A stretch of 55,758 nucleotides of DNA. It comes from a virus (taxonomy: Duplodnaviria > Caudoviricetes). Below are positions 1,187 through 39,678 of the stretch, piece by piece. The notes beneath the pieces were generated by a model, which was not told where the DNA came from, searched no databases, and saw nothing but the letters and a program-made list of their open reading frames with translations. Position 1 is the stretch's first letter, and the number at the start of each line of letters is the position of its first letter. Position numbers and translations under genes: made by a program. The stretch spans positions 1 through 55,758 of IMG/VR virus record IMGVR_UViG_3300042922_000297. One strand, given 5' to 3'.

Positions 1187-1569
1187 CCGCCGACCTGGAC
1201 GCCATCGCCGAAGACATCGCAATGGCCAAGCGATCCGCCGAGATAGCCCGACATGTGGCGCTCGATCACGGACCCGAACTCATCTCCGAGATCAAGGGCC
1301 TACGCGCCGAAGTCGGTCTATTGCGCGGCGGCTGCAACGTCCGACCCATGACCGAAGTCGAATCCAACCTGATGACACAGGTACTCGCCCTACGTCGCGA
1401 AAACGCCCGCCTACGCGCACAAGAGCAACGGGTGCGAGACATCTGCACCGAACCCGATCACAAAAAGTGGATGCGGGAGCTGTCACGCGGCTTCGACGGC
1501 AAACCGATATGCGCGCACACCGTTCCAGTGGACGCCGTGTTGGCCGTCCTTAACGCAGAGGAGTCTTGA
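1183..1569 (+). CDS. Hypothetical coiled-coil protein
   Basis: ATGA overlap. Confidence 0.7.
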   Translation: MTADLDAIAEDIAMAKRSAEIARHVALDHGPELISEIKGLRAEVGLLRGGCNVRPMTEVESNLMTQVLALRRENARLRAQEQRVRDICTEPDHKKWMRELSRGFDGKPICAHTVPVDAVLAVLNAEES

Positions 1570-1591
1570 TGTGCGCTGATGTGTTGGTGTT

Positions 1592-1873
1592 GTGGAGGTT
1601 GCGTCGCAGGGGGCACCGGTCAAGCTGGCGGGTACGACGATGAACGGGCCGGCAGATCGGCGTGCAGTCCGCCGAATGGTCGCTGTGACCTTGCTGATGA
1701 AAAGAGAGCACCAGATTGCGGGGTTCGCCGTGGCTAGGGACTTCGCTCGGCAAGTCGGGCTGCCTGATATGTACGTCGACAACGTTGAGGTTCAGTTCCG
1801 GCTTGATGGTGCGCCTCTGAAATGGCCTGGCCGAGTTGATGCCTTCCATCTGGTCGATAGGGAACTGGGATGA
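1592..1873 (+). CDS. Hypothetical protein (start uncertain)
   Basis: Fills gap on the coding strand. Confidence 0.45.
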   Translation: MEVASQGAPVKLAGTTMNGPADRRAVRRMVAVTLLMKREHQIAGFAVARDFARQVGLPDMYVDNVEVQFRLDGAPLKWPGRVDAFHLVDRELG

Positions 1874-2036
1874 GGTGCGTGTGTGGGCATGTGCATACCG
1901 ACGGATGCCCATGCGGCTGCTCGTACGTCGAGGTCGATCTTGGGCGGGATGACACCCTCAGCGGCCCCACCAACGCCCGATACCAGCCCTACACCGGGGT
2001 TTACCGCGGCCCGTACCAACTAGACCAGGAGACCCC

Positions 2037-2249
2037 ATGAAGCGAGCGGCGAGATACGAAACCCTGGTTTACCCATCAAACCGACACTCGGGATACGGCG
2101 TCCCCGTCACGGTCTACGCCGACAACGTCAGCGCGGCCAAGCAGAGGGCGGTTCAAATCGGTTGGGGTGGACATCCGCCCGACGCGCGGGTCGCCATCCA
2201 GTCCGTCCACGACACCGAACCCACCCCGGACCCCGGGGAGACCGCATGA
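2037..2249 (+). CDS. Hypothetical protein
   Basis: AGGAG RBS before ATG. Confidence 0.7.
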   Translation: MKRAARYETLVYPSNRHSGYGVPVTVYADNVSAAKQRAVQIGWGGHPPDARVAIQSVHDTEPTPDPGETA

Positions 2250-2536
2250 GCGGCTGGGATGTCGAAACGTGGAAAGCGGCATGGGGTGACAACCTGGCCA
2301 TGATATGCCGCGACGACGAGATCGCCATGCCCACACCACCCGAAGGCTTGAGTTGGCTGGTCGTCCGCGAAGTGACCGGCACCCACCCGACGTACTGCGT
2401 GTTCCTCATGGAAATCGGTGCCGTCGACACCCAGATCCTGCACCGAGGCCGCATCGACAAGACGCTCTACGGAGAGCGCGGAGTCCAAGGTTTAGCCGCA
2501 GACATGCTCGACCGAGTCAAGCGGGCCACCTCATGA
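2246..2536 (+). CDS. Hypothetical protein
   Basis: ATGA overlap, GGGGAG RBS. Confidence 0.7.
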   Translation: MSGWDVETWKAAWGDNLAMICRDDEIAMPTPPEGLSWLVVREVTGTHPTYCVFLMEIGAVDTQILHRGRIDKTLYGERGVQGLAADMLDRVKRATS

Positions 2537-2754
2537 CCGACCCGCGTGCCCTCATCAACCAACTCGTCGCTATCCGCCTGTCCCGCAACCTTCCCCAACG
2601 CGCCATAGCCAAACGCATGGGCATCAGCCGCCCCGCCATCAGCCGCCTCGAAAACGACCACACCCGCGACCCCAAACTCTCCACCCTGCTCCGCTACGCC
2701 GACGCGTTGGGTGTACACATCACCATCCACAACCCAGGGTCGAATAATGGCTGA
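2533..2754 (+). CDS. XRE-family helix-turn-helix protein
   Basis: QRAIAKRMGISRPAISRLEN...PKLSTLLRYADALG. Confidence 0.9.
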   Translation: MTDPRALINQLVAIRLSRNLPQRAIAKRMGISRPAISRLENDHTRDPKLSTLLRYADALGVHITIHNPGSNNG

Positions 2755-2826
2755 TATTGGGGTGTTGCGGACACCAAAAACGTTGCGCGACAAGGTAAAA
2801 TGCCGTAAATCAAAGGAGGACCACTC

Positions 2827-3711
2827 ATGACCGCAGCGCCCATCGAAGTCGACGAAGACGGCGACCTCATCGCCGCCATGAACGACCTCACCGCAGCAGT
2901 AGGCCGCATGGTCTCCCCACAAATCAGCTTCGTGGACTCACAAATCCGCCGAGCCCCAAGCCTCTACATGCAACTGTTCGACGCCGTCTCAGGGGAACAA
3001 GCACAGTCCGGGTCGGGCACAGGCTCCAAATCCCGGCCCCCGTTCTGGACTGACGCGTTCGACCTCAAAAACAAGATCGACATCCGCCTAGAGTTCGAGC
3101 AGATCGCATTCCAGGGTGTCCCGGCATCAGTCGGCAGGATGCGGGAACTGTTGCGGCGGGAGTGGCGGCCGCAAGACGTCCGCAAGATCGGCCAGCTCAC
3201 CGACGCCCTCCAAGAGTGGGCCGACGCCATCGTCAACACACTCTCCCCGCCACGCAAATGGTCCGTACCCAACCCATGCCCCAACTGCGGGAAAGCCGTC
3301 GTCTACCGCCCCGACTCCGGCGGGCAGATGAACCGCCAACCAGCACTGCAATTCACCACCGACGGATGCACCTGCGCCAACTGCAAATACGTGTGGGGTG
3401 TCGAACGATTCCAGATCCTTGCCGCGGCCTTGCGTCAAGACCAAGAGAAAGCGGTAACTGGTGTGACTGTCGGCGAACTAATCGAGAAACTCTCCAGTAT
3501 GGACCCGGAAACACTGGTGGTGACGGATGACACGTCGTGCTTCCACTACATCACCGACTACACGGTGAGGCGAGTCCAGGCTGAGGTGGTTGACCCCACC
3601 AACAGCCTCGGCCCACTGCTGCAACGCTTCCACCCCAAATCTAAAGGCGAACCCGTCGAAGTTGTTGTCCTGTCCAAATGGAACCAAGGCGAACAGGCCA
3701 TCGACCTGTGA
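2827..3711 (+). CDS. Conserved right-end protein with C4 Zn ribbon plus C-terminal extension; possible late regulator
   Basis: AAAGGAGG RBS, upstream TAAAAT; CPNC...CANC; position ahead of HNH/terminase. Confidence 0.75.
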   Translation: MTAAPIEVDEDGDLIAAMNDLTAAVGRMVSPQISFVDSQIRRAPSLYMQLFDAVSGEQAQSGSGTGSKSRPPFWTDAFDLKNKIDIRLEFEQIAFQGVPASVGRMRELLRREWRPQDVRKIGQLTDALQEWADAIVNTLSPPRKWSVPNPCPNCGKAVVYRPDSGGQMNRQPALQFTTDGCTCANCKYVWGVERFQILAAALRQDQEKAVTGVTVGELIEKLSSMDPETLVVTDDTSCFHYITDYTVRRVQAEVVDPTNSLGPLLQRFHPKSKGEPVEVVVLSKWNQGEQAIDL

Positions 3712-24001: not shown

Positions 24002-24832
24002 ATGGCCTGGCCTATCGTTGACTGGAATGGTGTGCCGCACTATCAGGCGCAGGGTGATTTCTTGGTGCCAGTCGACCCGGATACGGGTGCGGCGATCATC
24101 ATGCTCAAGCAGGACGGTGGGGTCGGGGCGGGGTTCGCTGCCATCGAGCAGGGTCCCCCCGGTATGCACGCAGAGTTGCAGGAGGCGATCAATCTTACGC
24201 CTTTGGCGCATGATGATCCGTCTCCCGCGTCGGCCAGTTGGACGACGATCGCGCCTGCCGGTACATCGACACCGGCGACGTACCGGTTGAACCTGGCGAT
24301 CCATGAGGGCGAGCCCGGCGAGGACGGCGATACGGTTCTGGACCCGGCCGATTATGGCGGCGGCGTTCCCGGCCAGATCCTTCAGGTCAACGGCGACAGC
24401 GACGGATTCGAGTTGGTCGCGCAGAAGGTCACGGAGTTCTTCTTTCCCGCGACGGTGGTGAACACGCCATCTGGGAACGTGAATTACACGTTGGCGGGGG
24501 TGAACATTCCGGCCCGGCCGTATCCGCGGCGTGTCATTGCGCACGGCGGCACGGTGGTGACGGGTGAGGGTTCGGATGTGCGGGTCGACCTGCTGGCGCG
24601 TCTAGATGGGGAGACTGGCGGCAACATTGTTGCTCAGTGTCCGGGTATCGCGCAGACGGATCGGTTGACGTTGTGGCCGGGGAAGGCTGCGGGTCAGGCT
24701 GATTCGTATGATCAGATCGCGGCCAATGCGACGGGGACGGTCCACTTCCGTTGCGAGCGCCGCGCTGGCACCACGACGTACACGACGACGAACTCGTTCA
24801 CTCGGTTCATGGTTGAGGTCATCGCGCTGTGA
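24002..24832 (+). CDS. Minor tail protein
   Basis: AGGAG RBS; collagen-like GPPG and GEPGEDG. Confidence 0.82.
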   Translation: MAWPIVDWNGVPHYQAQGDFLVPVDPDTGAAIIMLKQDGGVGAGFAAIEQGPPGMHAELQEAINLTPLAHDDPSPASASWTTIAPAGTSTPATYRLNLAIHEGEPGEDGDTVLDPADYGGGVPGQILQVNGDSDGFELVAQKVTEFFFPATVVNTPSGNVNYTLAGVNIPARPYPRRVIAHGGTVVTGEGSDVRVDLLARLDGETGGNIVAQCPGIAQTDRLTLWPGKAAGQADSYDQIAANATGTVHFRCERRAGTTTYTTTNSFTRFMVEVIAL

Positions 24833-26502
24833 CCAATCCGCTCATTGATCCTGAGTGGTCGTCGGAGATTCCGTCTGCCCCGGTGCATAAGGGTCAGTCT
24901 CAGGGTGGGTTGACTCGTCCGTTTTCGGCTCAGCAGTTGGTTGAGTTCGGGATTGAGTTGATTGAGCAGTTTTTGCGGCGTGTGGTTAATGCGGTTGTGG
25001 GGTTTTTCATTCCGGGTGGTGGTCCGGCGTTTGATCAGTTGGCTGATTGGGCTGGCGGGATTAATGATGGGTTGCAGAACTTCGCTTCGTTGGTGACGGG
25101 TATCGATTTCAATCAGACGCCTGCGCAGGTGTGGCACGACATCATGCAGGTGTTCCTTAAGCCGTTGAATGTGTTCGCGGAGTTGATCGGCGGGTTCATT
25201 TCGTCGTTGCAGATACCAACCCTTGACCCGACGAAGATCCTGAATCTGCCTGGTCTGTTTTCGGATTTCGGGAACACGATCGAGGGGTTCTTTCAGGCGT
25301 TGACGGGTCAGTCTGGTGCGACGTCGTATGTGGATCCTGTTGAGGCGTTGACGTATTTGGCTGATCAGGTGTCGGGGTCTGCGCAGGCTATCGCGGAGTT
25401 GCAGGCCGCGAATGCGGGTTCGGAGAATAGTGGCCTGTCTGGTGGCGACAACTTTCAGACGCCGTACACGGGGAGTCTTGGCCCGGGTTGGAGTCTGACT
25501 TCGACTAACGGGATCACGTCGTATGTGGATACGTCGACTGGTAAGGCGGAGTGGCACAACAGCGGTAATGCGACGCCGACTGTGACAGCGCGCAGGATCA
25601 ATCCTGCCGATGCGAAGACGTTGACGGAGTTCCAGAAGATCACGGTGACGTTGACGACGCCTACGGGTCAGACGTTCGGGCGGATTCGGTTGCAGGGGCG
25701 GACTTCTGATGATGGCCTGCACTATGTGGTGGCTTATGCGTCGCCGGGTGGTGTCGCGATTGCGTATGCGGCTGGTGGCGCTGAGGTGGTCCTGGATTCA
25801 GGGCCGTTGCCGGGCGGGCAGAAACTGACAAACGGCACCGTGATCTCATTTGAGCCCGGCACGGCCGAGGGCCAGAACGAGTACGACGTCAAACTGAATG
25901 GCGTTAATGCCCAGTCGTATACAGACACTGGCAACTTGATCACCACTTCAGTGAACTACGCCGCTCGGGGCCTAGCTGAAGCGCCGAAAGGTTGGGCTAT
26001 CGGTTGGGCGGCGGCCCTGGAGTTGGGGCAGTGGCGACGCCCGCCGTCCCTGTCTGGTTGCACTATCGCTGACAACATTCCCGCCGAGATCAAGGGTCAC
26101 GGTTTCCGGGTGTATCGGGAATCGACCACCGGTGAGGAACTGACACTGGATGAGATCCTGTGCCCGCATTACGACGAAATCGACTACATCACTCCGGGTT
26201 CGGCGTGGTCGTCGGCGGGCTATGTCGTACCCAAGGCTGGTATGTGGTCGTTCTCGCACAGGTTCATCCGGACGGCGGCGAACTGGACGTATGTGGTGGT
26301 CGGGCTGCATGTCAACGGGGCTATCAGAGCTGCCGGGGGGATTCACTCGGGCGTCAACATCGCCCAGGACACGTTCCTGATGTACTGCGAGGAAGGCGAC
26401 GTCGTTGACCTGCGCATCAACCAAAAGAGCGGCACTGTCGCGATGGTTGGCTCCTCCACTGGTGCTGATTCCTACTTTGCGGGGGCGCTGATGTCGTCAT
26501 GA
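24829..26502 (+). CDS. Minor tail protein with lectin-like and C1q-like C-terminal domains
   Basis: Synteny; YVVPKAGMWSF...EGDVVDL...SYFAG. Confidence 0.8.
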   Translation: MTNPLIDPEWSSEIPSAPVHKGQSQGGLTRPFSAQQLVEFGIELIEQFLRRVVNAVVGFFIPGGGPAFDQLADWAGGINDGLQNFASLVTGIDFNQTPAQVWHDIMQVFLKPLNVFAELIGGFISSLQIPTLDPTKILNLPGLFSDFGNTIEGFFQALTGQSGATSYVDPVEALTYLADQVSGSAQAIAELQAANAGSENSGLSGGDNFQTPYTGSLGPGWSLTSTNGITSYVDTSTGKAEWHNSGNATPTVTARRINPADAKTLTEFQKITVTLTTPTGQTFGRIRLQGRTSDDGLHYVVAYASPGGVAIAYAAGGAEVVLDSGPLPGGQKLTNGTVISFEPGTAEGQNEYDVKLNGVNAQSYTDTGNLITTSVNYAARGLAEAPKGWAIGWAAALELGQWRRPPSLSGCTIADNIPAEIKGHGFRVYRESTTGEELTLDEILCPHYDEIDYITPGSAWSSAGYVVPKAGMWSFSHRFIRTAANWTYVVVGLHVNGAIRAAGGIHSGVNIAQDTFLMYCEEGDVVDLRINQKSGTVAMVGSSTGADSYFAGALMSS

Positions 26503-26699: not shown

Positions 26700-27995
26700 G
26701 TGCCACTCAAAGATGACTGGGCGGTAGGACAAAAAGTCCAACCCGGCGACCTGAACGCCATCGCCACACAAGTCAACGCCAACACCGAAGCCATCGAAAG
26801 CCTCCCCGGCGGCGGCGGATCAGGCGACATGCTCGCATCCGTCTACGACCCCACCAACGTCGCAGGCGACGCGTTCGACCAGGACAACATGGTCAACGGG
26901 ACAGCAAACAAAAATTTCTCGGCGGGTGAACAAACCAAACTAGCCGGGATTGAAAACCTCGCCGACGTCACAGACGCCGCCAACGTTGCTGCAGCCGGCG
27001 CGCAGATGACCTCCGGGAAGAACGCCAACAACGGCTACGCAGGCCTCGACAGCTCGGGGCTAGTTCCGGCCTCCCTGCTGCCCTCCTACGTCGATGACGT
27101 CATCGAGGCCGCCAACTTCGCCGCCCTCACAGGTGGTGTCGCAGGCAAAATCTATGTGACTCTGGACAACAACAAGACCTACCGCTGGTCGGGATCAGCG
27201 TTCGTCGAGATCAGCCCCTCTCCGGGTTCAACAGACTCGGTGACTGAGGGTTCCACCAACCTGTACTACACACAGGCCCGCGCCGACGCCCGCGTTGTTG
27301 CGGGAATCACCGGCAAGGCCGACAAAGCCACGACCATCTCAGCGGGCACCGGCCTGACTGGTGGTGGCGATCTGTCGACCAACCGGACACTGGCCGTCTC
27401 GTACGGCACCGCAGCCGGTACGGCGGCGCAGGGCAACGACGCCCGCCTCTCCGACGAACGGGTACCCACCAACAACTCAGTCACCAACGCCAAAATGGCC
27501 GACGACGCCATCGGCATCGACGAACTGTCAGCAACAGGCACCCCCAGCAGCAACACCTACCTGCGCGGCGACAACACATGGTCGGCACCCTCCATAGGCG
27601 GACTCACAGCTCAAGCGGCATACACCGCCACCGCAGAAACCATTGCATCCGGTGGGGCGTACGCAGACCTGACCACCACCACGGATCAGGTCACCATCGA
27701 CGTGGGACCTGCCGGTGTCGCGGTCGTCTCTATCGGGGCGTGGTTCGGGGCGAGCGCCGCGAACGCTCAGGCGTACATATCATTTGCCGTGTCAGGTGCT
27801 AACACATCTGTGGCTGCCGACTCGAAATGTGTGTACGTGCGCGCCGTCGCCGGGTCATCGGTGATCGGCGGCACCGAGTCCTCGTTCACCCTCACCGGGC
27901 TCACCCCCGGATCCACGACGTTCAAGATGAAGTACAAGGCAGCGGGCGGTACCGGTACGTACGAGCACCGCCGCATCTCAGTCCTGACCTTCTAA
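26700..27995 (+). CDS. Tail fibre / minor tail protein 1
   Basis: Gly/Thr/Ala-rich; AGTGLTGGGDLS.NRTL, GTAAQGNDARLS fibre motifs. Confidence 0.85.
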   Translation: MPLKDDWAVGQKVQPGDLNAIATQVNANTEAIESLPGGGGSGDMLASVYDPTNVAGDAFDQDNMVNGTANKNFSAGEQTKLAGIENLADVTDAANVAAAGAQMTSGKNANNGYAGLDSSGLVPASLLPSYVDDVIEAANFAALTGGVAGKIYVTLDNNKTYRWSGSAFVEISPSPGSTDSVTEGSTNLYYTQARADARVVAGITGKADKATTISAGTGLTGGGDLSTNRTLAVSYGTAAGTAAQGNDARLSDERVPTNNSVTNAKMADDAIGIDELSATGTPSSNTYLRGDNTWSAPSIGGLTAQAAYTATAETIASGGAYADLTTTTDQVTIDVGPAGVAVVSIGAWFGASAANAQAYISFAVSGANTSVAADSKCVYVRAVAGSSVIGGTESSFTLTGLTPGSTTFKMKYKAAGGTGTYEHRRISVLTF

Positions 27996-28009
27996 CGCTA
28001 GGAACTGAT

Positions 28010-29701
28010 GTGGCTGAACTGAAGCAGGATTGGCGACTCGGGCAGAAAGTACAGCCCGGGGATATGAACGCCGTCGCAGCGCAACTGAACGCCAACACGC
28101 AGGCCATCGAGGACGGCATCCCGACGTCCGTGGATTCCGCGTCTATAACCGATGCGGGTGAAGCCGGCAAGGTGTTAGTGCAGGCCGACACCGCGGATGA
28201 CGTACTCGACATCCTCGATGCCACCACCACCGGCCGTGACATCCTCACCGGCACACCCGAAGAAGCTGTTACGGCGCTCGGGGCCACTGAAACTGGCGCG
28301 GCGGTCCTCACCGGGGATGCGGCGGAGGGCCGCGCGGCGCTGAATGCGGTAGCGAAACTCCCAGCGGGGCACTACACGCCGACAGGGAAACCCAACGGCA
28401 CTGTCACAGCACTGGATAGCGGCCAGACAGTGGCGACGTTCGGCGATTCACCAGGTGTGGTGTCATCGGGGGTGTTGGTCACCACGGCTACCGGCTCGCC
28501 GCCACACGGCACCTACTACCAAGCCGACATGGGCGCGACAGTGCGCCGTATCGGTTGTGAGGTGAAGTGGCCGGCCAACGCGGTCGGAGCGCTGGCATTC
28601 GTGCTGCCAGTATCAGCGTGGGGTCCACCTGGTGGGCATCCGTCGGGGGATAACTCTGCGGGCGCGAACGCCGGGGTCCACCTCACCCTGTACGGCAACG
28701 GCATTTGGGATTGCGGCAACTGGAACGCCCTAGCCGGGACCGTCACAAGCTATGCGAGTAGCACCACACACGGCCGGTACGGCACCGTGTGGGACGGCGA
28801 GTTCCATGATGTCGAAATTTGGGTTGATCCCGACGCGGAGAAGATGACCGTCCGTTTCCCGGATGGTTCTTTCACGACGATCGAGAACGCCGCTGTTGGT
28901 GATGTGACGTCGTGGGTGATCTGGGAGCAGTTCGAGTCGAATACCGCGGATGTTCCGTGTGTGCTGCGGAATTTGTGGGCGGATACCGAGGCCCGGCGGG
29001 CAGATTCATTCGCTGTCACGAGGGTGGATATCGCTGAGGCTGTGGCCGCGATCCGCAAGGGGTACGACCTTGAGTATGTGACCACGTCCGGTGGCACAAA
29101 GACGATGACGGCGGCATCTCCTCAGATCCAAGTTCCTTTTGGTACCGCTGCCCACACGATTGTCCTTCCCGGGGATGTCAAAAAGGGCTACGGGGTCATA
29201 GTTTCTAACACGTCAACCGGCGTGGTGACGGTTAACTCGTCCGACGGAACGTTCGTCACGGCAATAGCTTCCAATGGTGAGGGCGTTTTCACGGCGTACG
29301 CGGACAATCCCGTTTTGGGGTCGAACTGGAAAGCCTCGCTTACTGCAACTACAAATGGTGTGCAGACGTTGACTCAAACGCGCCTAGATCCGCGGGTGAC
29401 ATCCACAACGTCCGCGTCGTCGTTGACCCCGTCCTACTCGTCCAAGGATCTGTACGTGTACACGGCGTTGGCGGCGAACCTCACCTTGAACGCACCGTCG
29501 GGCACTACGAACGGTGGGCGGCTGCGGCTCCGGATCAAGGACGACGGTGTGTCACGAACCCTGACGTGGAACGCGATCTACCGGGGCATCGGTGTCACAT
29601 TGCCTGCTGCGACGACGGCGGGGAAGTGGATGTACGTCGACATGAATTACAACCCCACGGATACCCGTTGGGATGTGACCGACGTGAAGATCGAGGCTTA
29701 G
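28010..29701 (+). CDS. Tail fibre / receptor-binding protein 2 with central lectin-like domain
   Basis: N-terminus paralogous to fibre 1; GTG after AGGA. Confidence 0.82.
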   Translation: MAELKQDWRLGQKVQPGDMNAVAAQLNANTQAIEDGIPTSVDSASITDAGEAGKVLVQADTADDVLDILDATTTGRDILTGTPEEAVTALGATETGAAVLTGDAAEGRAALNAVAKLPAGHYTPTGKPNGTVTALDSGQTVATFGDSPGVVSSGVLVTTATGSPPHGTYYQADMGATVRRIGCEVKWPANAVGALAFVLPVSAWGPPGGHPSGDNSAGANAGVHLTLYGNGIWDCGNWNALAGTVTSYASSTTHGRYGTVWDGEFHDVEIWVDPDAEKMTVRFPDGSFTTIENAAVGDVTSWVIWEQFESNTADVPCVLRNLWADTEARRADSFAVTRVDIAEAVAAIRKGYDLEYVTTSGGTKTMTAASPQIQVPFGTAAHTIVLPGDVKKGYGVIVSNTSTGVVTVNSSDGTFVTAIASNGEGVFTAYADNPVLGSNWKASLTATTNGVQTLTQTRLDPRVTSTTSASSLTPSYSSKDLYVYTALAANLTLNAPSGTTNGGRLRLRIKDDGVSRTLTWNAIYRGIGVTLPAATTAGKWMYVDMNYNPTDTRWDVTDVKIEA

Positions 29702-30441
29702 CCGACCGGTTGGAGTGGTTGGCCGTCTTCAACAGCCCAGACGGTGTCGAAGTCGAATGTTGTTGATGCTGGTGGGGGTTTGATGTATTCCTCCCAGAAT
29801 GCGCGGTCGCCTAGGAGGCCGGTGGTGTCGACGGGGTGTGTGGATTCGTGGCCGGGCACAGTGACGGTGACTGTGTCGTCGGTCGCGGCGATGGCGAATG
29901 TGTAGTCCCGGCCGATCGTGAGCGGTGGGCTGAACACACCTTTCGCGACTGGCTCGAACGGGCCGCCCCGTCGCACCGTCAGTTCCCAGGTGGAGCGGTT
30001 GGCGGCGAAGTGCACCATATCCATCACCAGCCGATCGTCAGGTGTGATGGCCATCGCCAGGGTGGTGTCAGCATTGCCGTCGCGGATCTGCCGCCATTGT
30101 CCGGTTGTTCCCACGCTGCGGACGGTGCCGCGGAACTGGCGGGCCGCGTACACGGTGTCGTTCCCGGCGTAGGTGAACGCACCGTCTCGGATGAGTCCGT
30201 CGGTGGCTGCGGGCATCGGGAAGCGGTCTACGTACCCGGCGCGCATATCCCAACCGTCGCCCAGTCCCGCGGTGGTGTCGGGCCGGTTGAAGGTGTCGAA
30301 CCACGACGTCTGGACTGGTGGTGCTTGGGCTGTGGTGGTCGTCGTTCCGGTGGTGTCGGTGATCTTCGACTCGTACGGCGGTGGTTCCTTCGTGCAGCCG
30401 ACCAGCATCAGGGCCGTAATCAGCGTCCACGCAATTTTCAC
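29698..30441 (-). CDS. Lipoprotein with lectin-like (ConA-type) domain
   Basis: MKIAWTLITALMLVG-C lipobox, Thr/Pro linker, FDTFNRPD..GLG.GW; TACGGT -10 six nt upstream. Confidence 0.85.
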   Translation of the reverse strand: MKIAWTLITALMLVGCTKEPPPYESKITDTTGTTTTTAQAPPVQTSWFDTFNRPDTTAGLGDGWDMRAGYVDRFPMPAATDGLIRDGAFTYAGNDTVYAARQFRGTVRSVGTTGQWRQIRDGNADTTLAMAITPDDRLVMDMVHFAANRSTWELTVRRGGPFEPVAKGVFSPPLTIGRDYTFAIAATDDTVTVTVPGHESTHPVDTTGLLGDRAFWEEYIKPPPASTTFDFDTVWAVEDGQPLQPVG

Positions 30442-30493
30442 CCGTCCACCGTAAAGCCCCACCCCCCGCACTGCTGCCTGAATGGAGGTTTCG

Positions 30494-31369
30494 ATGCTCG
30501 GAACCAACCAGTCCGACCTGTGCCAACTCGCCCCGGCGGATTTGGATCGTGTGTGCGCAGATATCGCGGCCTATGGGTTTGAGTCGGTGCGGTTCGCGGT
30601 GGATTGGGGGTGGCTGTCCAATCTGTGGGGGAGTGTGAATTACGGGCCGGTGGAGCGGGTCGCGAAGACTCTCGCGAAGCACAAGCTCATCCCGTTGCCG
30701 GCGGTGGGGATTCATTACCCGTGGAAACACTCACCGGAAGCCTTCGGGGCGTTCACTAAGAGGGTCGTCAGCATCTTCGGGCCGTTGCCCGCGTATGAGG
30801 TGTGGAACGAACCCAACCTTCCCGGGTTTGGTATCGGCACCCCCGCACAGTTCCTCACCTACCTGCGGGCCGCCGCACCTGTCATCCGGGCTGCCGGGTC
30901 CGCTGTGATCCACGGCGGGCTCGCCGCGTTCCCCGACCGTCGTGGCTGGTGGACACGGGACTACAGCCCCACCACCTGGCTAGGGGCACTGTATGCGGCG
31001 GGTGAGCGCAACGACTACGACCTGTTCGGCTACCACCCCTACAGCTTCGACACCGTCCAGAAGTGGTGTGATCCTGCTGGCCGCCCGTTCGGTATCGACC
31101 AAATCACACAGCTGGATGCGGCCCGCACACGCCGTGGCGACACCCGCCCCTACGCGTTCACTGAAATCGGGTACGACACCAACAAAGTCGATGCCGTCAC
31201 CGCAGCCCGCTACCTGTCCGCTCAGATGCCCGCCATGCGTGAACGGTCCAATCACAACTGGCTGTTCTGCTGGCGCGACACGGTTGGCGATGGCGGCAAA
31301 TACGGACTCGTCCACGCCAACAATGCGCCCAAACTCCCGCTGTACAACGCCGTCAGAGGCTTGCTGTGA
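30494..31369 (+). CDS. Clan GH-A glycoside hydrolase (GH5/GH39-like)
   Basis: GGAGG RBS; WNEPN acid/base, YHPY, FTEIG nucleophile. Confidence 0.88.
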   Translation: MLGTNQSDLCQLAPADLDRVCADIAAYGFESVRFAVDWGWLSNLWGSVNYGPVERVAKTLAKHKLIPLPAVGIHYPWKHSPEAFGAFTKRVVSIFGPLPAYEVWNEPNLPGFGIGTPAQFLTYLRAAAPVIRAAGSAVIHGGLAAFPDRRGWWTRDYSPTTWLGALYAAGERNDYDLFGYHPYSFDTVQKWCDPAGRPFGIDQITQLDAARTRRGDTRPYAFTEIGYDTNKVDAVTAARYLSAQMPAMRERSNHNWLFCWRDTVGDGGKYGLVHANNAPKLPLYNAVRGLL

Positions 31370-31518
31370 AGCTCGACCTGTACGGCACCGACCAACCAGG
31401 CTTCCGCAAACCCCGCGCCGGCCGCTGCCACCTATGCGGCCGGCCATGCCTCGAACACCCCGCGATCCGCCACCGCTTCTGGGCGCTCGTTGCCCTGCTC
31501 GTTTCATTTAAGCGGTAA
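31366..31518 (+). CDS. Small hypothetical protein (50 aa)
   Basis: GTGA overlap; CHLC, hydrophobic C-terminus. Confidence 0.5.
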   Translation: MKLDLYGTDQPGFRKPRAGRCHLCGRPCLEHPAIRHRFWALVALLVSFKR

Positions 31519-31685: not shown

Positions 31686-31988
31686 ATGGGATTCCTCGAC
31701 ACCATCGTTGATGCCGTCTGGAAACGGCTGAAGCCAGAGATCGACGAAATGCAGGCCACCGCGAAAACCGAACTGGACGAGTGGCAGGTCATCGCCGAAC
31801 AACAGTTGGATGAGTGGCGCACCGAAGCCATGGCCATGCTCAAAGAAGCCCTCCCCGAGATGGCCGGTGCCATCGCTGAGCAGGCAGTCAAGACAGTCTT
31901 CGAACACACGCAGGTCGATGAAGCCGCCGACGCCGTGTCCGGTGTCATCACCGACATCGTCGGACGCCTCGGATTCGGCCTCCGATGA
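31686..31988 (+). CDS. Helical protein upstream of lysin A (Ms6 Gp1-like position)
   Basis: GGAG RBS; coupled to lysA. Confidence 0.75.
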   Translation: MGFLDTIVDAVWKRLKPEIDEMQATAKTELDEWQVIAEQQLDEWRTEAMAMLKEALPEMAGAIAEQAVKTVFEHTQVDEAADAVSGVITDIVGRLGFGLR

Positions 31989-33184
31989 CCTACGGCCTAC
32001 CGACCGGGACGCGCATCACATACGGCGCCAAGGGTTTCCCGCAGTGGGTGTACGACCTCGGCAAGGCGTTCAACCTCAAAGCCTCCACCTATCCGGGGCA
32101 TCAGGAAACGAACCACGCCGAACCCGGCTTCGTCGCCAACCCGCAGAAACTCAACCGCGGCATCGACTGGGCTGGCTCCGTCGCCGATATGCAGCGGTTC
32201 GCCGACTACCTCATGGGCATCAAATCATCCCTGGAGCAGGTCATCTGGGAGAACCCGACCAACGGGCGGCGGGCCGGTGTCGCGGGCGGCAAAGACGTCA
32301 CCGCGTCCGCTTACTACGCCTACGACGGTGGCTACAACGGCCACCGAGACCACGTACACACACGCCAATCAGCACCCATACCCCTCCCGTCAGGAGCACC
32401 CGTGGCCGACAACAAACCCGCGTTCAACGAGTTCCCGATCTGGTCGAAGAACAACAGCGCCCGCGCATCCAAGGTCGACGCCTTTCTTCTGCACACACAG
32501 GAAGGTGGCGGCGGAAACGCAGCCGCGGAGAACCTCGCCAAGTGGTTCCAGAACGCCAACAACGTCTCCTACCACTACACCATCAGCCAGGCCGCTGACG
32601 GCGGAGTGACCGTAGTCGATTGCGTCGACACCGACCGGGCATCCTGGTCCGTGCTGTCCGCGAACGGGCGATCCATCAACCTGTGCTTCGCCGGCTCCCG
32701 CGCAGCGTGGACCCGGGTGGACTGGCTGAAGCAAGCCAAAGCGATCGACGTGGCCGCCTACCTCGCGGTGCAGGACGCCAGGAAGTACGGCTTCCCGACC
32801 ACGGTTATCGCACCGCCGTACACAGGACGCCTTCCTGGTATCTCGGATCACCGCTACGTGACCAAGGTGCTCGGCGACGGCACCCACACCGATGTCGGCG
32901 ACGGCTTCCCCTGGGACGTGTTCTCCGCGGCGGTGGCTAAGTACAGCGGCAAGCAAGCACCTCCCGTGCCACCTCCCCCCGGCACCACACCCACTCCCGT
33001 GCCGCCCCTGTCCGACAGTCAACTGTTGCAGCAGATCGCCAACGATGTCGCCTGGCTCCGTCAACAGCATGACGTTGGCCTCGACGCGTGGGGCGAAGAC
33101 GGCGACCTCGGCCGCAACGCCAAAGGTCAGCGCCGCACCCTCCGCGCCGGGCTGGCCGCACTCATCCGCAAGGTTGGTGCCTGA
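31985..33184 (+). CDS. lysA: Lysin A (N-terminal peptidase-like domain, Amidase_2, C-terminal binding domain)
   Basis: GH...GIDW...HRDHVH; LHTQEG, SYHY, HTDVGDGFPWD. Confidence 0.93.
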   Translation: MTYGLPTGTRITYGAKGFPQWVYDLGKAFNLKASTYPGHQETNHAEPGFVANPQKLNRGIDWAGSVADMQRFADYLMGIKSSLEQVIWENPTNGRRAGVAGGKDVTASAYYAYDGGYNGHRDHVHTRQSAPIPLPSGAPVADNKPAFNEFPIWSKNNSARASKVDAFLLHTQEGGGGNAAAENLAKWFQNANNVSYHYTISQAADGGVTVVDCVDTDRASWSVLSANGRSINLCFAGSRAAWTRVDWLKQAKAIDVAAYLAVQDARKYGFPTTVIAPPYTGRLPGISDHRYVTKVLGDGTHTDVGDGFPWDVFSAAVAKYSGKQAPPVPPPPGTTPTPVPPLSDSQLLQQIANDVAWLRQQHDVGLDAWGEDGDLGRNAKGQRRTLRAGLAALIRKVGA

Positions 33185-38511: not shown

Positions 38512-39678
38512 ATGGCGTCCATTCGTGAGGTCCCAAGGAACGACGGCACCACCGCACACACCGTCCTCTACCGCCTCGATGGCAGGCAGAGAACGCTCGT
38601 CTTCGACGACCCGAAGGCCGCCGAAGTCTTCAGGGACACCATCAACGTCCACGGCCCGAAACGTGCGATGGAGATGCACAACATCGACCCTGAGCCACGC
38701 CGGCGCAACAAAGTCCATGTGATGACCGTCGCCGAATGGGTCCGCCACCACATCGACCACCTCACCGGCGTCGAACAGACCACCATCGACAAATACGACG
38801 ACTACCTGAAGAACGACATCGAACCCCACCTCGGCCACATCCCACTCAAGGAACTATCGAGCGACGACCTCGCTCGATGGGTCAAACACATGGAAACCCA
38901 CGGCGGGCGCAAGGGCACCGGGCACGCCCCGAAGACCCTCGCCAACAAATACGGGTTCCTCTCCGGTGCGCTGAATGCCGCCGTGACACGCAAACCGAAA
39001 CCGTTGATCGAGTCCAACCCGGCGGCAGGCCGCAAACTCTCCAGGGCCGAAGCGCCCGACTCCGAAGATGACGAAGACATCCGAATCCTCACCCACGACG
39101 AGTTCGACGTCCTACTCGATGCTGTCACCGACTACTGGAAGCTGCTGATCGAGTTCATGGTCACCACCGGCCTACGGTGGGGGGAGGCCGCCGCCCTGGA
39201 GCCTAAGCACGTGAACCTCGCGGACGGGACGATCAAGATCCGGCAGGCGTGGAAGTATTCGCGCACGAACGGCTACTACCTCGGTCCTCCGAAGACGAAG
39301 CGGTCCCGTCGGACGGTGGACGTTCCCACGGAGATGCTGGATCGCCTGGACCTGTCGGACGAGTTCGTGTTCATGAACACCACCGGGGGCCCTGTCCGGT
39401 ATCACGGGTTCAAGCGCAGGGTGTGGGATGCCGCGGTGAAGAAGTCCGGCCTGGACCCGCGCCCCACTCCGCACGATCTGCGGCACACGTACGCGTCGTG
39501 GCAGCTCATCGGTGGTACTCCTATCACGGTGGTGTCGAGGCAGCTCGGTCACGAGAGCATTCAGGTCACGGTCGACATCTACGGCGACGTGGACAGGGCG
39601 TCGGCGAAGGTGGCATCGGAGTACATGTCCCGGACGCTGGCTGCGCGGAAGCAGCCAAACCCTAAACCTCAACTCTAG
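38512..39678 (+). CDS. int: Tyrosine integrase
   Basis: TGLRWGE, PKT, HDLRH, LGH...Y. Confidence 0.97.
   Translation: MASIREVPRNDGTTAHTVLYRLDGRQRTLVFDDPKAAEVFRDTINVHGPKRAMEMHNIDPEPRRRNKVHVMTVAEWVRHHIDHLTGVEQTTIDKYDDYLKNDIEPHLGHIPLKELSSDDLARWVKHMETHGGRKGTGHAPKTLANKYGFLSGALNAAVTRKPKPLIESNPAAGRKLSRAEAPDSEDDEDIRILTHDEFDVLLDAVTDYWKLLIEFMVTTGLRWGEAAALEPKHVNLADGTIKIRQAWKYSRTNGYYLGPPKTKRSRRTVDVPTEMLDRLDLSDEFVFMNTTGGPVRYHGFKRRVWDAAVKKSGLDPRPTPHDLRHTYASWQLIGGTPITVVSRQLGHESIQVTVDIYGDVDRASAKVASEYMSRTLAARKQPNPKPQL

What the first reader, a model, noticed from the sequence alone, without database searches (positions are those of the whole stretch)
28490..30453. Antisense lipoprotein that mirrors the adjacent tail fibre's lectin-like domain: candidate receptor-masking exclusion system
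Seen: the only reverse-strand gene in the structural arm converges on fibre 2 with a 4-bp overlap, and has a lipobox (LVG-C), a Thr/Pro linker and its own leaderless -10 (TACGGT, 30448-30453). By eye its domain is collinear with the fibre's central domain (about 28490-28990): Y..GATVRRIG...W vs Y..RGTVRSVG...W; LAFVL vs LAMAI; VHLT..W vs VHFA..W; MTVRFPDG vs VTVTVPGH; VIWEQF vs AFWEEY; LWA vs VWA. Established: lipoprotein superinfection exclusion exists (T5 Llp, Cor), but those proteins are not homologs of the phage's own receptor-binding domain. Inference: the prophage displays a membrane-anchored copy of its receptor-binding fold that occupies or sequesters the glycan receptor, a cognate fibre/decoy pair I do not know to be described.
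Basis: partly seen in the sequence, partly recalled or inferred. Interest (0 to 1): 0.88.

Follow-up and report, generated by a model that had tools for sequence, protein, structure and literature searches.

The report
Phage lipoprotein related to its tail fibre
A temperate mycobacterial phage carries, backwards beside its last tail-fibre gene, a real gene for a membrane-anchored sugar-recognition protein that is a distant relative of a domain in that fibre, and both have cousins in bacterial surface-polysaccharide gene clusters, which hints at which surface sugar the phage uses.

Summary
A 247-aa reverse-strand gene (29698-30441) is real: 69 homologs, dN/dS 0.14-0.16, and AF2 pLDDT 91.8. It has a lipobox Cys conserved in at least 90% of 40 homologs, a Thr/Pro linker, a 4-bp convergent overlap with fibre 2, and a TACGGT-N6-GTG layout kept in 3 of 3 phage loci.

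Its ConA-like domain is a true but remote relative of the fibre's central domain. hhalign scores 48 against 14.5±2.4 for 60 shuffles. Bridging sequences exist, and both models hit the same legume lectins. Another lectin-like tail domain in this phage, DUF7257, does not match.

"Mirror" overstates it. Aligned columns are 17% identical, and the lipoprotein profile gives its neighbour 3.7 bits but other tail proteins 107-128 bits. The five fibre/lipoprotein pairs show no co-variation.

Chromosomal relatives of both branches sit in Wzy-type polysaccharide loci without phage genes. Best reading (0.5): an independently transcribed envelope lipoprotein that binds or processes a host surface polysaccharide, giving lysogenic conversion or exclusion. 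The gene layout resembles the T5 RBP-llp module. The specific decoy idea is neither shown nor excluded (about 0.15-0.2).

Expression and function are untested. The scan noted the same arrangement in another genome (e1-6281833).

The parts
29698..30441 (-). Lipoprotein gene (247 aa, GTG start 30441, stop TAA 29700-29698)
   Evidence: ORF and translation. 69 homologs. GC3 0.77 and dN/dS 0.14-0.16. AF2 pLDDT 91.8.
30394..30441 (-). Signal peptide with lipobox L-V-G-C (residues 1-16)
   Evidence: Read from the sequence. Cys16 is at least 90% conserved in 40 homologs. The model shows a helix at residues 2-14. Lipidation itself is not shown.
30310..30393 (-). Thr/Pro-rich linker (residues 17-44)
   Evidence: Read from the sequence. 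pLDDT is 66-71 with no secondary structure. Length and sequence vary among homologs.
29701..30309 (-). ConA-like beta-sandwich domain (residues 45-247)
   Evidence: pLDDT is 87-98. Foldseek PDB hits are legume lectins, GH16 glucanases, PL7 lyases and CBM66, with TM 0.4-0.6. BFVD hits are actinophage minor tail proteins.
30448..30453 (-). -10-like hexamer TACGGT, 6 nt upstream of the GTG start (candidate leaderless promoter)
   Evidence: Read from the sequence. The layout is conserved in L002 (TACGCT-N6-GTG) and L015 (TACGGT-N7-GTG). The two-hexamer sigma-70 scan found no site. There are no transcript data.
28010..29701 (+). Fibre 2 gene (563 aa from GTG 28010)
   Evidence: Translation. The N-terminal ~35 aa resemble those of the preceding fibre gene. 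The C-terminus hits phrog_3030 and phage tail-fibre C-termini. AF2 model.
28352..29044 (+). Fibre 2 central ConA-like domain (residues 115-345). Residues 151-330 align with lipoprotein residues 79-242.
   Evidence: 12 homologs. hhalign. pLDDT about 80-88. Foldseek returns the same legume lectins as for the lipoprotein.
29698..29701 (.). 4-bp convergent overlap of the two stop codons, with no terminator-like site
   Evidence: Sequence. Terminator scan found 0 sites. L015 has the same 4-bp overlap and L002 an 11-bp overlap.
30494..31369 (+). Divergent neighbour: clan GH-A-like gene. The likely start is ATG 30494, 5 nt after GGAGG 30484-30488. It is not part of the conserved module.
   Evidence: Sequence. 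Weak GH39/GH5 Pfam hits below the cut-off. No match in relatives L002 and L015.

Best explanation
The gene encodes an exported, lipid-anchored envelope protein. Its ConA-like domain recognises, by binding or possibly cleaving, a host cell-envelope polysaccharide of the kind made by Wzy-type loci. It is transcribed on its own, antisense to the late operon, probably from a leaderless promoter and probably in the lysogen. Anchored at the outer face of the plasma membrane on a ~30-residue linker, it would meet the polysaccharide where it is polymerised or exported. It would then change what is displayed on the surface, which is lysogenic conversion. The likely pay-off is reduced adsorption of phages carrying fibre-2-type fibres: superinfection exclusion, or protection of progeny from cell debris. 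The gene layout is like the T5 RBP + llp module.

Shown: the gene is real; lipoprotein signal features; the fold; remote homology to the fibre's central domain; linkage to the fibre gene in other phages; chromosomal relatives in polysaccharide loci.

Inferred: glycan as the ligand; periplasmic site of action; expression in the lysogen; exclusion as the outcome.
For: The gene and its product:
- The gene is real and under purifying selection.
- Signal peptide plus lipobox, with the Cys kept in at least 90% of 40 homologs.
- Confident ConA-like model whose nearest solved structures are carbohydrate binders or glycanases.

Relationship to the fibre:
- Homology to fibre 2's central domain: hhalign score 46.5-48 and prob 78-90%, against shuffles of 14.5±2.4.
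- Seven listed proteins are hit by both profiles. P0188, for example, has A1 E 6.9e-10 library-wide and A2 E 4.7e-19 in a database of 147.
- Three chromosomal places are hit by both profiles.
- The top BFVD structural neighbour of the lipoprotein, the GretelLyn 'lipase', belongs to the family that the fibre domain hits by tblastn.

Linkage and layout:
- The lipoprotein is convergent on a fibre-2-type gene in 3 of 3 phage loci read (window, L002, L015), while the other flank differs.
- Three more pairs share a contig length.
- The -10-like hexamer layout is conserved in 3 of 3 loci.
- The phage has a tyrosine integrase.

Chromosomal relatives:
- Two of the 3 chromosomal lipoprotein-type loci whose neighbourhood I read, G001 and G349, lie among UDP-glucose dehydrogenase, glycosyltransferases, Wzz/Wzy-like proteins, GDP-mannose dehydratase and sugar transferases.
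- Fibre-type chromosomal relatives have a hexapeptide-transferase-like neighbour in 5 of 8 genomes and a Wzy_C-like neighbour in 4 of 8.
- One of these (G359) is fused through a membrane segment to the transferase.

Conserved site and precedent:
- A polar set is conserved across 125 remote relatives: D49 in 88 of 92, R53 in 87 of 92, H144 in 112 of 118, E217 in 90 of 104.
- Precedent for an RBP gene with an adjacent exclusion-lipoprotein gene: PMC9586334 and PMC4728585, passages read.
Against: - No direct evidence of expression, lipidation, glycan binding or exclusion.
- The two-hexamer promoter scan found nothing.
- The third chromosomal lipoprotein-type locus read (G096) is not in an obvious polysaccharide locus, and the fourth (G293) sits on a contig too short to judge.
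- No hit in PADLOC, Pfam, NCBIfam or PHROGs gives a function.
- The fold cannot separate a lectin from a glycanase or lyase. No GH16 ExDxxE motif is present in the sequence.
- The chromosomal homologs show the family has a cellular role, so the phage copy may serve host physiology rather than exclusion.
- Linkage with the fibre could reflect plain adjacency in a mosaic block.
Confidence: 0.5

Rival explanations
1. One reading: the lipoprotein is a membrane-anchored counterpart of the fibre's receptor-binding fold. It occupies or sequesters the same glycan receptor, so the two form a cognate fibre/decoy pair.
For: - The two domains are homologous, and within this phage they are each other's nearest relatives. 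The fibre 2 frame is the best non-self hit of the lipoprotein profile among 549 six-frame ORFs.
- The DUF7257 control fails.
- The genes stay together in 3 of 3 phage loci read.
- Both branches have relatives in host polysaccharide loci, so both may recognise such a polymer.
Against: - Aligned columns are only 17% identical.
- The lipoprotein profile scores the neighbouring fibre at 3.7 bits, against 107-128 bits for P0110 and P0116-P0118.
- The five pairs do not co-vary. Fibre/lipoprotein identities are 56/90, 50/82, 93/80, 59/66 and 55/87%.
- Lipoprotein orthologs exist in a genome with no fibre match.
- The fibre's tip is the C-terminal domain, which is replaced in L002 while the lipoprotein stays 90% identical.
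- A plasma-membrane anchor is far from the cell surface (inference).
Confidence: 0.15
2. A host-fitness moron. The phage copy does in the lysogen what its chromosomal relatives do, helping to assemble, trim or retain an exopolysaccharide (capsule or biofilm trait), with no role in phage exclusion.
For: Orthologs of 51-54% identity lie inside polysaccharide-synthesis loci without phage genes. The slot between tail and lysis genes holds unrelated reverse-strand genes in the relative Cornie.
Against: The gene is kept next to the same fibre type in mosaic phage genomes whose other flanks differ. That pattern is easier to explain by a fibre-related function.
Confidence: 0.2
3. A lytic-cycle accessory: a glycan-degrading or glycan-binding factor that works with the neighbouring GH-A-like enzyme and the lysins during release.
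For: It lies between the tail and lysis genes, divergent from a GH-like gene. The fold is shared with GH16 and PL7 enzymes.
Against: - It is on the opposite strand to the late and lysis genes.
- The GH-like gene has no match in L002 or L015, where the lipoprotein is kept.
- There is no GH16 motif.
Confidence: 0.1
4. It is not a functional gene: a chance antisense ORF in GC-rich DNA, or a decaying remnant.
For: High-GC phage DNA gives many long spurious ORFs on both strands.
Against: - 69 homologs.
- GC3 0.77 and dN/dS 0.14-0.16.
- A confident fold.
- A conserved lipobox.
Confidence: 0.02

Closest known systems
T5-family host-recognition module: RBP gene (oad/hrs) with the adjacent receptor-blocking lipoprotein gene llp (PMC9586334 and PMC4728585, passages read)
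   Same: A lipoprotein gene lies directly beside the gene of a host-recognition protein, and the two are inherited as a block. As reported for DT57C versus BF23, the lipoprotein here is more conserved than the recognition protein.
   Different: - Llp is described there as a small lipoprotein that binds a protein receptor (FhuA or BtuB) and is unrelated to the RBP.
- This protein has 247 aa, a lectin-like fold and homology to a domain of the fibre.
- The host has no Gram-negative outer-membrane transporter of that type.
- No sequence relation was found: the lipoprotein matched 0 PHROG families.
- Function here is untested.
Lysogenic-conversion genes that alter surface glycans (gtrABC, Oac and the like; recalled, not looked up)
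   Same: An accessory gene of a temperate phage, oriented apart from the late operon, is expected to change a surface polysaccharide and so the phage's own receptor.
   Different: Those are glycosyl- or acyl-transferases acting from the membrane. This one is a soluble lectin/glucanase-fold domain on a lipid anchor, with no transferase features.
ConA-like lectin/glucanase superfamily (legume lectins, GH16, PL7, CBM66, YesU-type)
   Same: The beta-sandwich fold, with Foldseek E 1e-6 to 1e-5 and TM 0.4-0.6. The same lectins are hit by the fibre model.
   Different: There is no sequence-level match to any solved structure or Pfam family. There is no GH16 catalytic motif. The family has its own conserved D/R/H/E set.
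Lectin-like modules of actinobacteriophage minor tail proteins, including DUF7257
   Same: The same fold class in BFVD neighbours. Seven of the 10 long relatives scanned carry tail-category PHROG matches.
   Different: Here the module stands alone on a lipoprotein signal peptide. DUF7257 itself is not detectably related by profile comparison (prob 7.9%).

Membership tests
Bacterial lipoproteins (Lgt/LspA substrates) | N-terminal signal peptide: a basic residue, then a hydrophobic stretch | tested here: met
   The N-terminus is V/M-K-IAWTLITALML. The model shows a helix at residues 2-14.
Bacterial lipoproteins (Lgt/LspA substrates) | Lipobox [LVI][ASTVI][GAS]C (pattern recalled) with a conserved Cys | tested here: met
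   L-V-G-C16. The Cys is at least 90% conserved in 40 homologs.
Bacterial lipoproteins (Lgt/LspA substrates) | Actual acylation and signal-peptide cleavage | not testable with these tools
   This needs labelling or mass spectrometry.
ConA-like lectin/glucanase fold | Two-sheet jelly-roll beta-sandwich | tested here: met
   pLDDT 91.8 and all-beta. 335 PDB matches at E<=1e-3, led by legume lectins, GH16 and PL7.
ConA-like lectin/glucanase fold | Carbohydrate binding or cleavage | not testable with these tools
   Only inferred, from structural neighbours and from the genomic context of relatives.
GH16 glucanases | Catalytic ExDxxE strand motif (motif recalled) | tested here: not met
   No E-x-D-x-x-E is present in the 247-aa sequence (read).
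Same domain family as fibre 2 central domain | Profile-profile similarity above controls, over most of the domain | tested here: met
   Score 48.0 over 147 columns, against shuffles with max 20.9. The DUF7257 control scores 26.3 over 27 columns.
Same domain family as fibre 2 central domain | Intermediate sequences matched by both profiles | tested here: met
   P0188, P0207, P0198, P0224, P0218, P0216 and P0220. Places in G313, G230 and G029.
Same domain family as fibre 2 central domain | Close (copy-like) relationship to the neighbouring fibre | tested here: not met
   BLASTP finds nothing. The lipoprotein profile scores the fibre at 3.7 bits. Aligned columns are 17% identical.
Llp/Cor-type superinfection-exclusion lipoproteins | Lipoprotein gene adjacent to the receptor-binding protein gene | tested here: met
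   Convergent with a 4-bp overlap. The same arrangement is present in L002 and L015.
Llp/Cor-type superinfection-exclusion lipoproteins | Sequence relationship to Llp or Cor | tested here: not met
   0 PHROG families, 0 PADLOC models and no named Pfam family. I made no direct comparison with Llp or Cor sequences.
Llp/Cor-type superinfection-exclusion lipoproteins | Blocks the receptor and lowers adsorption or plating | not testable with these tools
   This needs expression and plating assays.
Prophage-expressed morons | Own promoter and transcription in the lysogen | tested here: inconclusive
   A conserved TACGNT-N6/7-GTG layout, but no two-hexamer promoter and no transcript data.

The most novel reading that the evidence does not exclude
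Fibre and lipoprotein are a functional pair built from one host-derived glycan-recognition domain family. The fibre's central domain docks the virion on a Wzy-type surface polysaccharide. The lipoprotein, made in the lysogen, captures or alters that same polymer at the periplasmic face, so that phages with this fibre type can no longer adsorb. Both domains would descend from proteins of the host's own polysaccharide loci. That would be a receptor-directed exclusion system in which the blocker is kin to the phage's own adhesin, and it would point to the still largely unknown receptors of mycobacteriophages.
Probability: 0.2. Interest if true: 0.8.

Novelty: new variant of a known kind. Interest (0 to 1): 0.55.

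Why it matters
Few receptor candidates are known for mycobacteriophages (PMC9934374, passage read).

- **A lead to the receptor.** A fibre domain and a phage lipoprotein both have relatives inside host Wzy-type polysaccharide loci. That gives a concrete, testable guess at the receptor class.
- **A candidate conversion or exclusion gene.** It lies in a recurrent slot between the tail and lysis genes.
- **An unnamed domain family.** It has 214 representative clusters at E<=1e-3, with a conserved D/R/H/E site. It is found in tail fibres, in lipoproteins and in one protein that also carries an autotransporter beta-domain.

If the exclusion reading holds, it would extend the T5 'RBP + blocking lipoprotein' logic to glycan receptors in mycolic-acid bacteria.

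Tried and rejected
Searches that found nothing useful:
- Megablast of 27800-31400 and tblastn of the lipoprotein against 50,697 phage records gave no match. The tool warns that near relatives of the window may be left out.
- Profile searches of both families against PDB sequences found nothing useful.
- Pfam on all 40 lipoprotein homologs gave only noise. That includes 4 of 40 weak LysC (Rz1-like) hits at E>=0.077 on the lipobox region, so I dropped a spanin reading.
- PADLOC and NCBIfam gave no hits.
- ESM Atlas returned only ConA-like leads, with no named close family: 3keto-disac_hyd on 24% of one cluster, PelX_N and DUF6645.
- IMG/VR and metagenome scans gave only 1 and 2 related loci. The genome-contig scan gave 1.

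Other steps:
- RNA evidence: no RNA holder was listed among the 4 runs found.
- The tandem lectin-like domains noted by the scan in the first minor tail protein are not matched by either profile (E 6.9 for the lipoprotein profile).
- Literature searches (listings and abstract starts only) showed no paper describing a lectin-like phage lipoprotein related to its own fibre. This is a limited search of open-access text. Supplements were closed and not seen.

Recalled, not from any call:
- The mycobacterial -10 consensus TANNNT and leaderless starts.
- The identity of PDB 6o38 as a phage fibre-chaperone complex.
- gtr and Oac conversion genes.
- The periplasmic location of Wzy polymerisation and of mycobacterial lipoprotein anchors.
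Full report
**What the window is.** The window is a complete virus record of 55,758 bp with direct terminal repeats. Its large terminase is 91% identical to that of Mycobacterium phage Cornie. It has a tyrosine integrase at 38512-39678 and an amidase-type lysin at 31985-33184, so it is a temperate mycobacteriophage-like siphovirus. The tail genes run on the plus strand. The last are a DUF7257-bearing fibre at 24829-26502, fibre 1 at 26700-27995 and fibre 2. From the alignment of its N-terminus with fibre 1, I start fibre 2 at GTG 28010, giving 563 aa.

**The observation.**
- The minus-strand gene ends at TAA 29700-29698, and fibre 2 ends at TAG 29699-29701, a 4-bp overlap.
- From GTG 30441 the product is 247 aa. 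It begins VKIAWTLITALMLVGC and continues with a Thr/Pro-rich linker.
- TACGGT lies at 30453-30448, six bases before the GTG.
- The gene is not an artefact of GC-rich DNA. It has 69 homologs at E<=1e-3 among 1011 candidates. I aligned 40 of them, and Cys16 is at least 90% conserved.
- Third-position GC is 0.77, against 0.59 for the overlapping plus-strand ORF. dN/dS against two phage orthologs is 0.14-0.16.
- AlphaFold2 on the 40-row alignment gives pLDDT 91.8. The model has an N-terminal helix, a low-confidence linker and an all-beta domain from residue ~45.

**Is the similarity to the fibre real?** BLASTP of the two proteins finds nothing, and the lipoprotein profile scores the fibre at only 3.7 bits. 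Profile against profile is different.
- The 12-row fibre alignment against the 40-row lipoprotein alignment gives probability 78.5%, E 1.7e-5 and 153 columns.
- With the fibre cut to residues 115-345 the score is 48.0 (probability 89.6%). Sixty column shuffles give 14.5±2.4 (max 20.9) and the reversed control gives 13.0.
- As a specificity control I built an 18-row alignment of the DUF7257 domain of the other fibre. It scores 26.3 over 27 columns against the lipoprotein (probability 7.9%) and 20.9 against the fibre-2 domain.
- Independent support comes from bridging sequences. A full HMMER search of 1.84 billion representatives with the lipoprotein profile found 214 proteins at E<=1e-3, of which 150 were listed. 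Among the 147 listed that I scanned, the fibre profile hits P0188, P0207, P0198, P0224, P0218, P0216 and P0220 at 5e-19 to 3e-15, in that small database.
- Three chromosomal places in the 401 genomes searched are matched by both profiles.
- Structure agrees. The fibre model is weaker overall (pLDDT 68.9), but its central domain is at about 80-88. After one hit to its C-terminal part, its Foldseek list is headed by the same legume lectins as the lipoprotein's: 2gme, 2gn3, 1q8q, 2bqp and others.
- The lipoprotein's best viral structural neighbour is the GretelLyn 'lipase'. That protein family is what the fibre domain hits by tblastn at 28.9% identity.

So the two domains are homologous, and within this genome they are each other's nearest kin.

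**How close are they?** Not close.
- Aligned columns are 17% identical.
- The lipoprotein profile scores many other multi-domain proteins far higher than its neighbour: P0110 at 127.6 bits, P0116 at 116.9, P0117 at 111.4 and P0118 at 107.6.
- Of 10 such long proteins scanned, 7 carry tail-category PHROG matches. Two have Mtd_N, one has the S74 chaperone domain and one is an autotransporter.
- A crude lipobox pattern is met by 24 of 84 representatives of at most 330 aa and by 2 of 66 longer ones.

The family is therefore a widespread module with no match in Pfam or NCBIfam, used both on tail fibres and on lipid anchors. 'Mirror' or 'copy' overstates the relation.

- In all three (window, L002 from a 63-kb viral record, L015 from a 57-kb metagenome contig) the lipoprotein converges on a fibre-2-type gene, with overlaps of 4, 11 and 4 bp. 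The genes on the other side differ.
- Three further fibre/lipoprotein homolog pairs share a longest-contig length: 10559, 12336 and 62130. That they share a contig is my inference.
- The short divergent region upstream of the lipoprotein is conserved. It includes TACG[G/C]T 6-7 nt before the GTG, and the ribosome-binding site of whatever gene diverges from it.
- This fits a leaderless mycobacterial promoter (consensus recalled). However, the generic two-hexamer scan found no promoter, and it found no terminator between the convergent genes.
- Late transcription towards the lysis genes would therefore run antisense through the lipoprotein gene (inference).
- The five pairs do not co-vary. Fibre-domain/lipoprotein-domain identities to the window are 56/90, 50/82, 93/80, 59/66 and 55/87%.
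- In L002 the fibre's C-terminal domain is replaced, while the lipoprotein stays 90% identical.
- In the relative Cornie the same slot holds two unrelated reverse-strand genes.

**Context in bacteria.** In 401 genomes of the family of G001, the lipoprotein profile matched 7 at E<=1e-5. Four matches are strong: G001, G349 (two tandem copies, one with two stops), G096 and G293.
- G001 has no fibre match. There the gene lies among UDP-glucose dehydrogenase, glycosyltransferases, a Wzz-type chain-length protein, a weak Wzy hit, GDP-mannose dehydratase and an epimerase.
- The G349 locus has glycosyltransferases, methyltransferases, a hexapeptide transferase and two sugar transferases.
- G096 is not obviously such a locus. 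G293 is on a short contig.
- The fibre profile matched 8 of the same 401 genomes. One match (G313) is itself a lipoprotein, with lipobox LGSAC, lying between a hexapeptide-transferase-like gene and a Wzy_C protein.
- In G359 the domain is fused through a membrane segment to that transferase, next to a Wzy_C protein.
- By tblastn, 5 of the 8 have the transferase neighbour and 4 of the 8 have the Wzy-like neighbour within the ~3.5 kb fetched.

Both branches of the family thus have cellular members tied to Wzy-type polysaccharide loci.

**What it most likely does.** The fold, the export signal and these contexts point to an envelope protein that recognises a polysaccharide. I cannot tell binding from cleavage.
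- Structural neighbours include lectins, GH16 and PL7 enzymes.
- There is no GH16 motif.
- A polar set is conserved across 125 remote relatives: D49, R53, H144 and E217. The His and Glu are also invariant in the fibre family. A shared site is likely, but its chemistry is unknown.
- A lipid anchor on the plasma membrane with a ~30-residue linker places the domain in the periplasm, where Wzy-type polymers are assembled (recalled). I therefore favour interception or alteration of the polymer there over masking at the cell surface.

The outcome I consider most likely is altered display of the glycan that fibre-2-type fibres use: lysogenic conversion with exclusion. In gene layout this parallels the T5-family RBP + llp module (passages in PMC9586334 and PMC4728585). 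There too the lipoprotein can be nearly identical while the RBP diverges. None of this is shown.

**Verdict.**
- The thing is a new variant of a known kind, an accessory lipoprotein beside a host-recognition gene, built from an undescribed lectin-like domain family.
- The scan had noted the same arrangement in another genome (e1-6281833). It had also noted other reverse-strand exported proteins in the same slot of other actinophages. Those are unchecked notes.

Noticed in passing
window 30482-31369: The divergent GH-A-like gene probably starts at ATG 30494, 5 nt after GGAGG at 30484-30488, not at ATG 30482. That leaves a 52-bp divergent spacer. Its Pfam hits (GH39, GH5) are below the cut-off. 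It has no match in the related loci L002 and L015.
   Followed up: partly
window 26700-26810 and 28010-28120: Fibre 1 and fibre 2 share an N-terminal ~35-aa motif (DW..GQKVQPGD.NA.A.Q.NANT.AIE). This suggests both dock on the same baseplate site.
   Followed up: no
L018 (G359:C1) 1498-3006, minus strand: A chromosomal protein fuses a hexapeptide-transferase-like part, a membrane segment and a fibre-2-type ConA-like domain. It lies next to a Wzy_C protein. In G313 the same three parts are separate genes, and the domain is a lipoprotein.
   Followed up: partly
L012/L006 (G349:C5:153321-154839): Two tandem copies of the lipoprotein-type gene lie in a polysaccharide locus. One is interrupted by a TGA and a TAA.
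   Followed up: no
L003 8899-9687: The chromosomal lipoprotein homolog in G001 is also on the strand opposite to both its polysaccharide-synthesis neighbours.
   Followed up: no
lipoprotein residues 49, 53, 144, 217 (window about 30297-29791, minus strand): D, R, H and E are conserved in 86-96% of 125 remote relatives. The His and Glu are invariant in the fibre family too. This is a candidate ligand, metal or catalytic site of an unnamed domain family.
   Followed up: partly
L017 (phage Cornie) 13039-13697: The slot between the last tail gene and the lysis cassette holds two reverse-strand genes, annotated as an endonuclease and a DNA-binding protein, in the closest isolated relative. The slot is therefore a variable accessory-gene site.
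   Followed up: no
window 31686-31988; L015 6173-6463: A small conserved gene beginning MGFLDTI... sits directly before lysin A in both phages, although their lysin A genes gave no BLASTP match at 1e-5.
   Followed up: no
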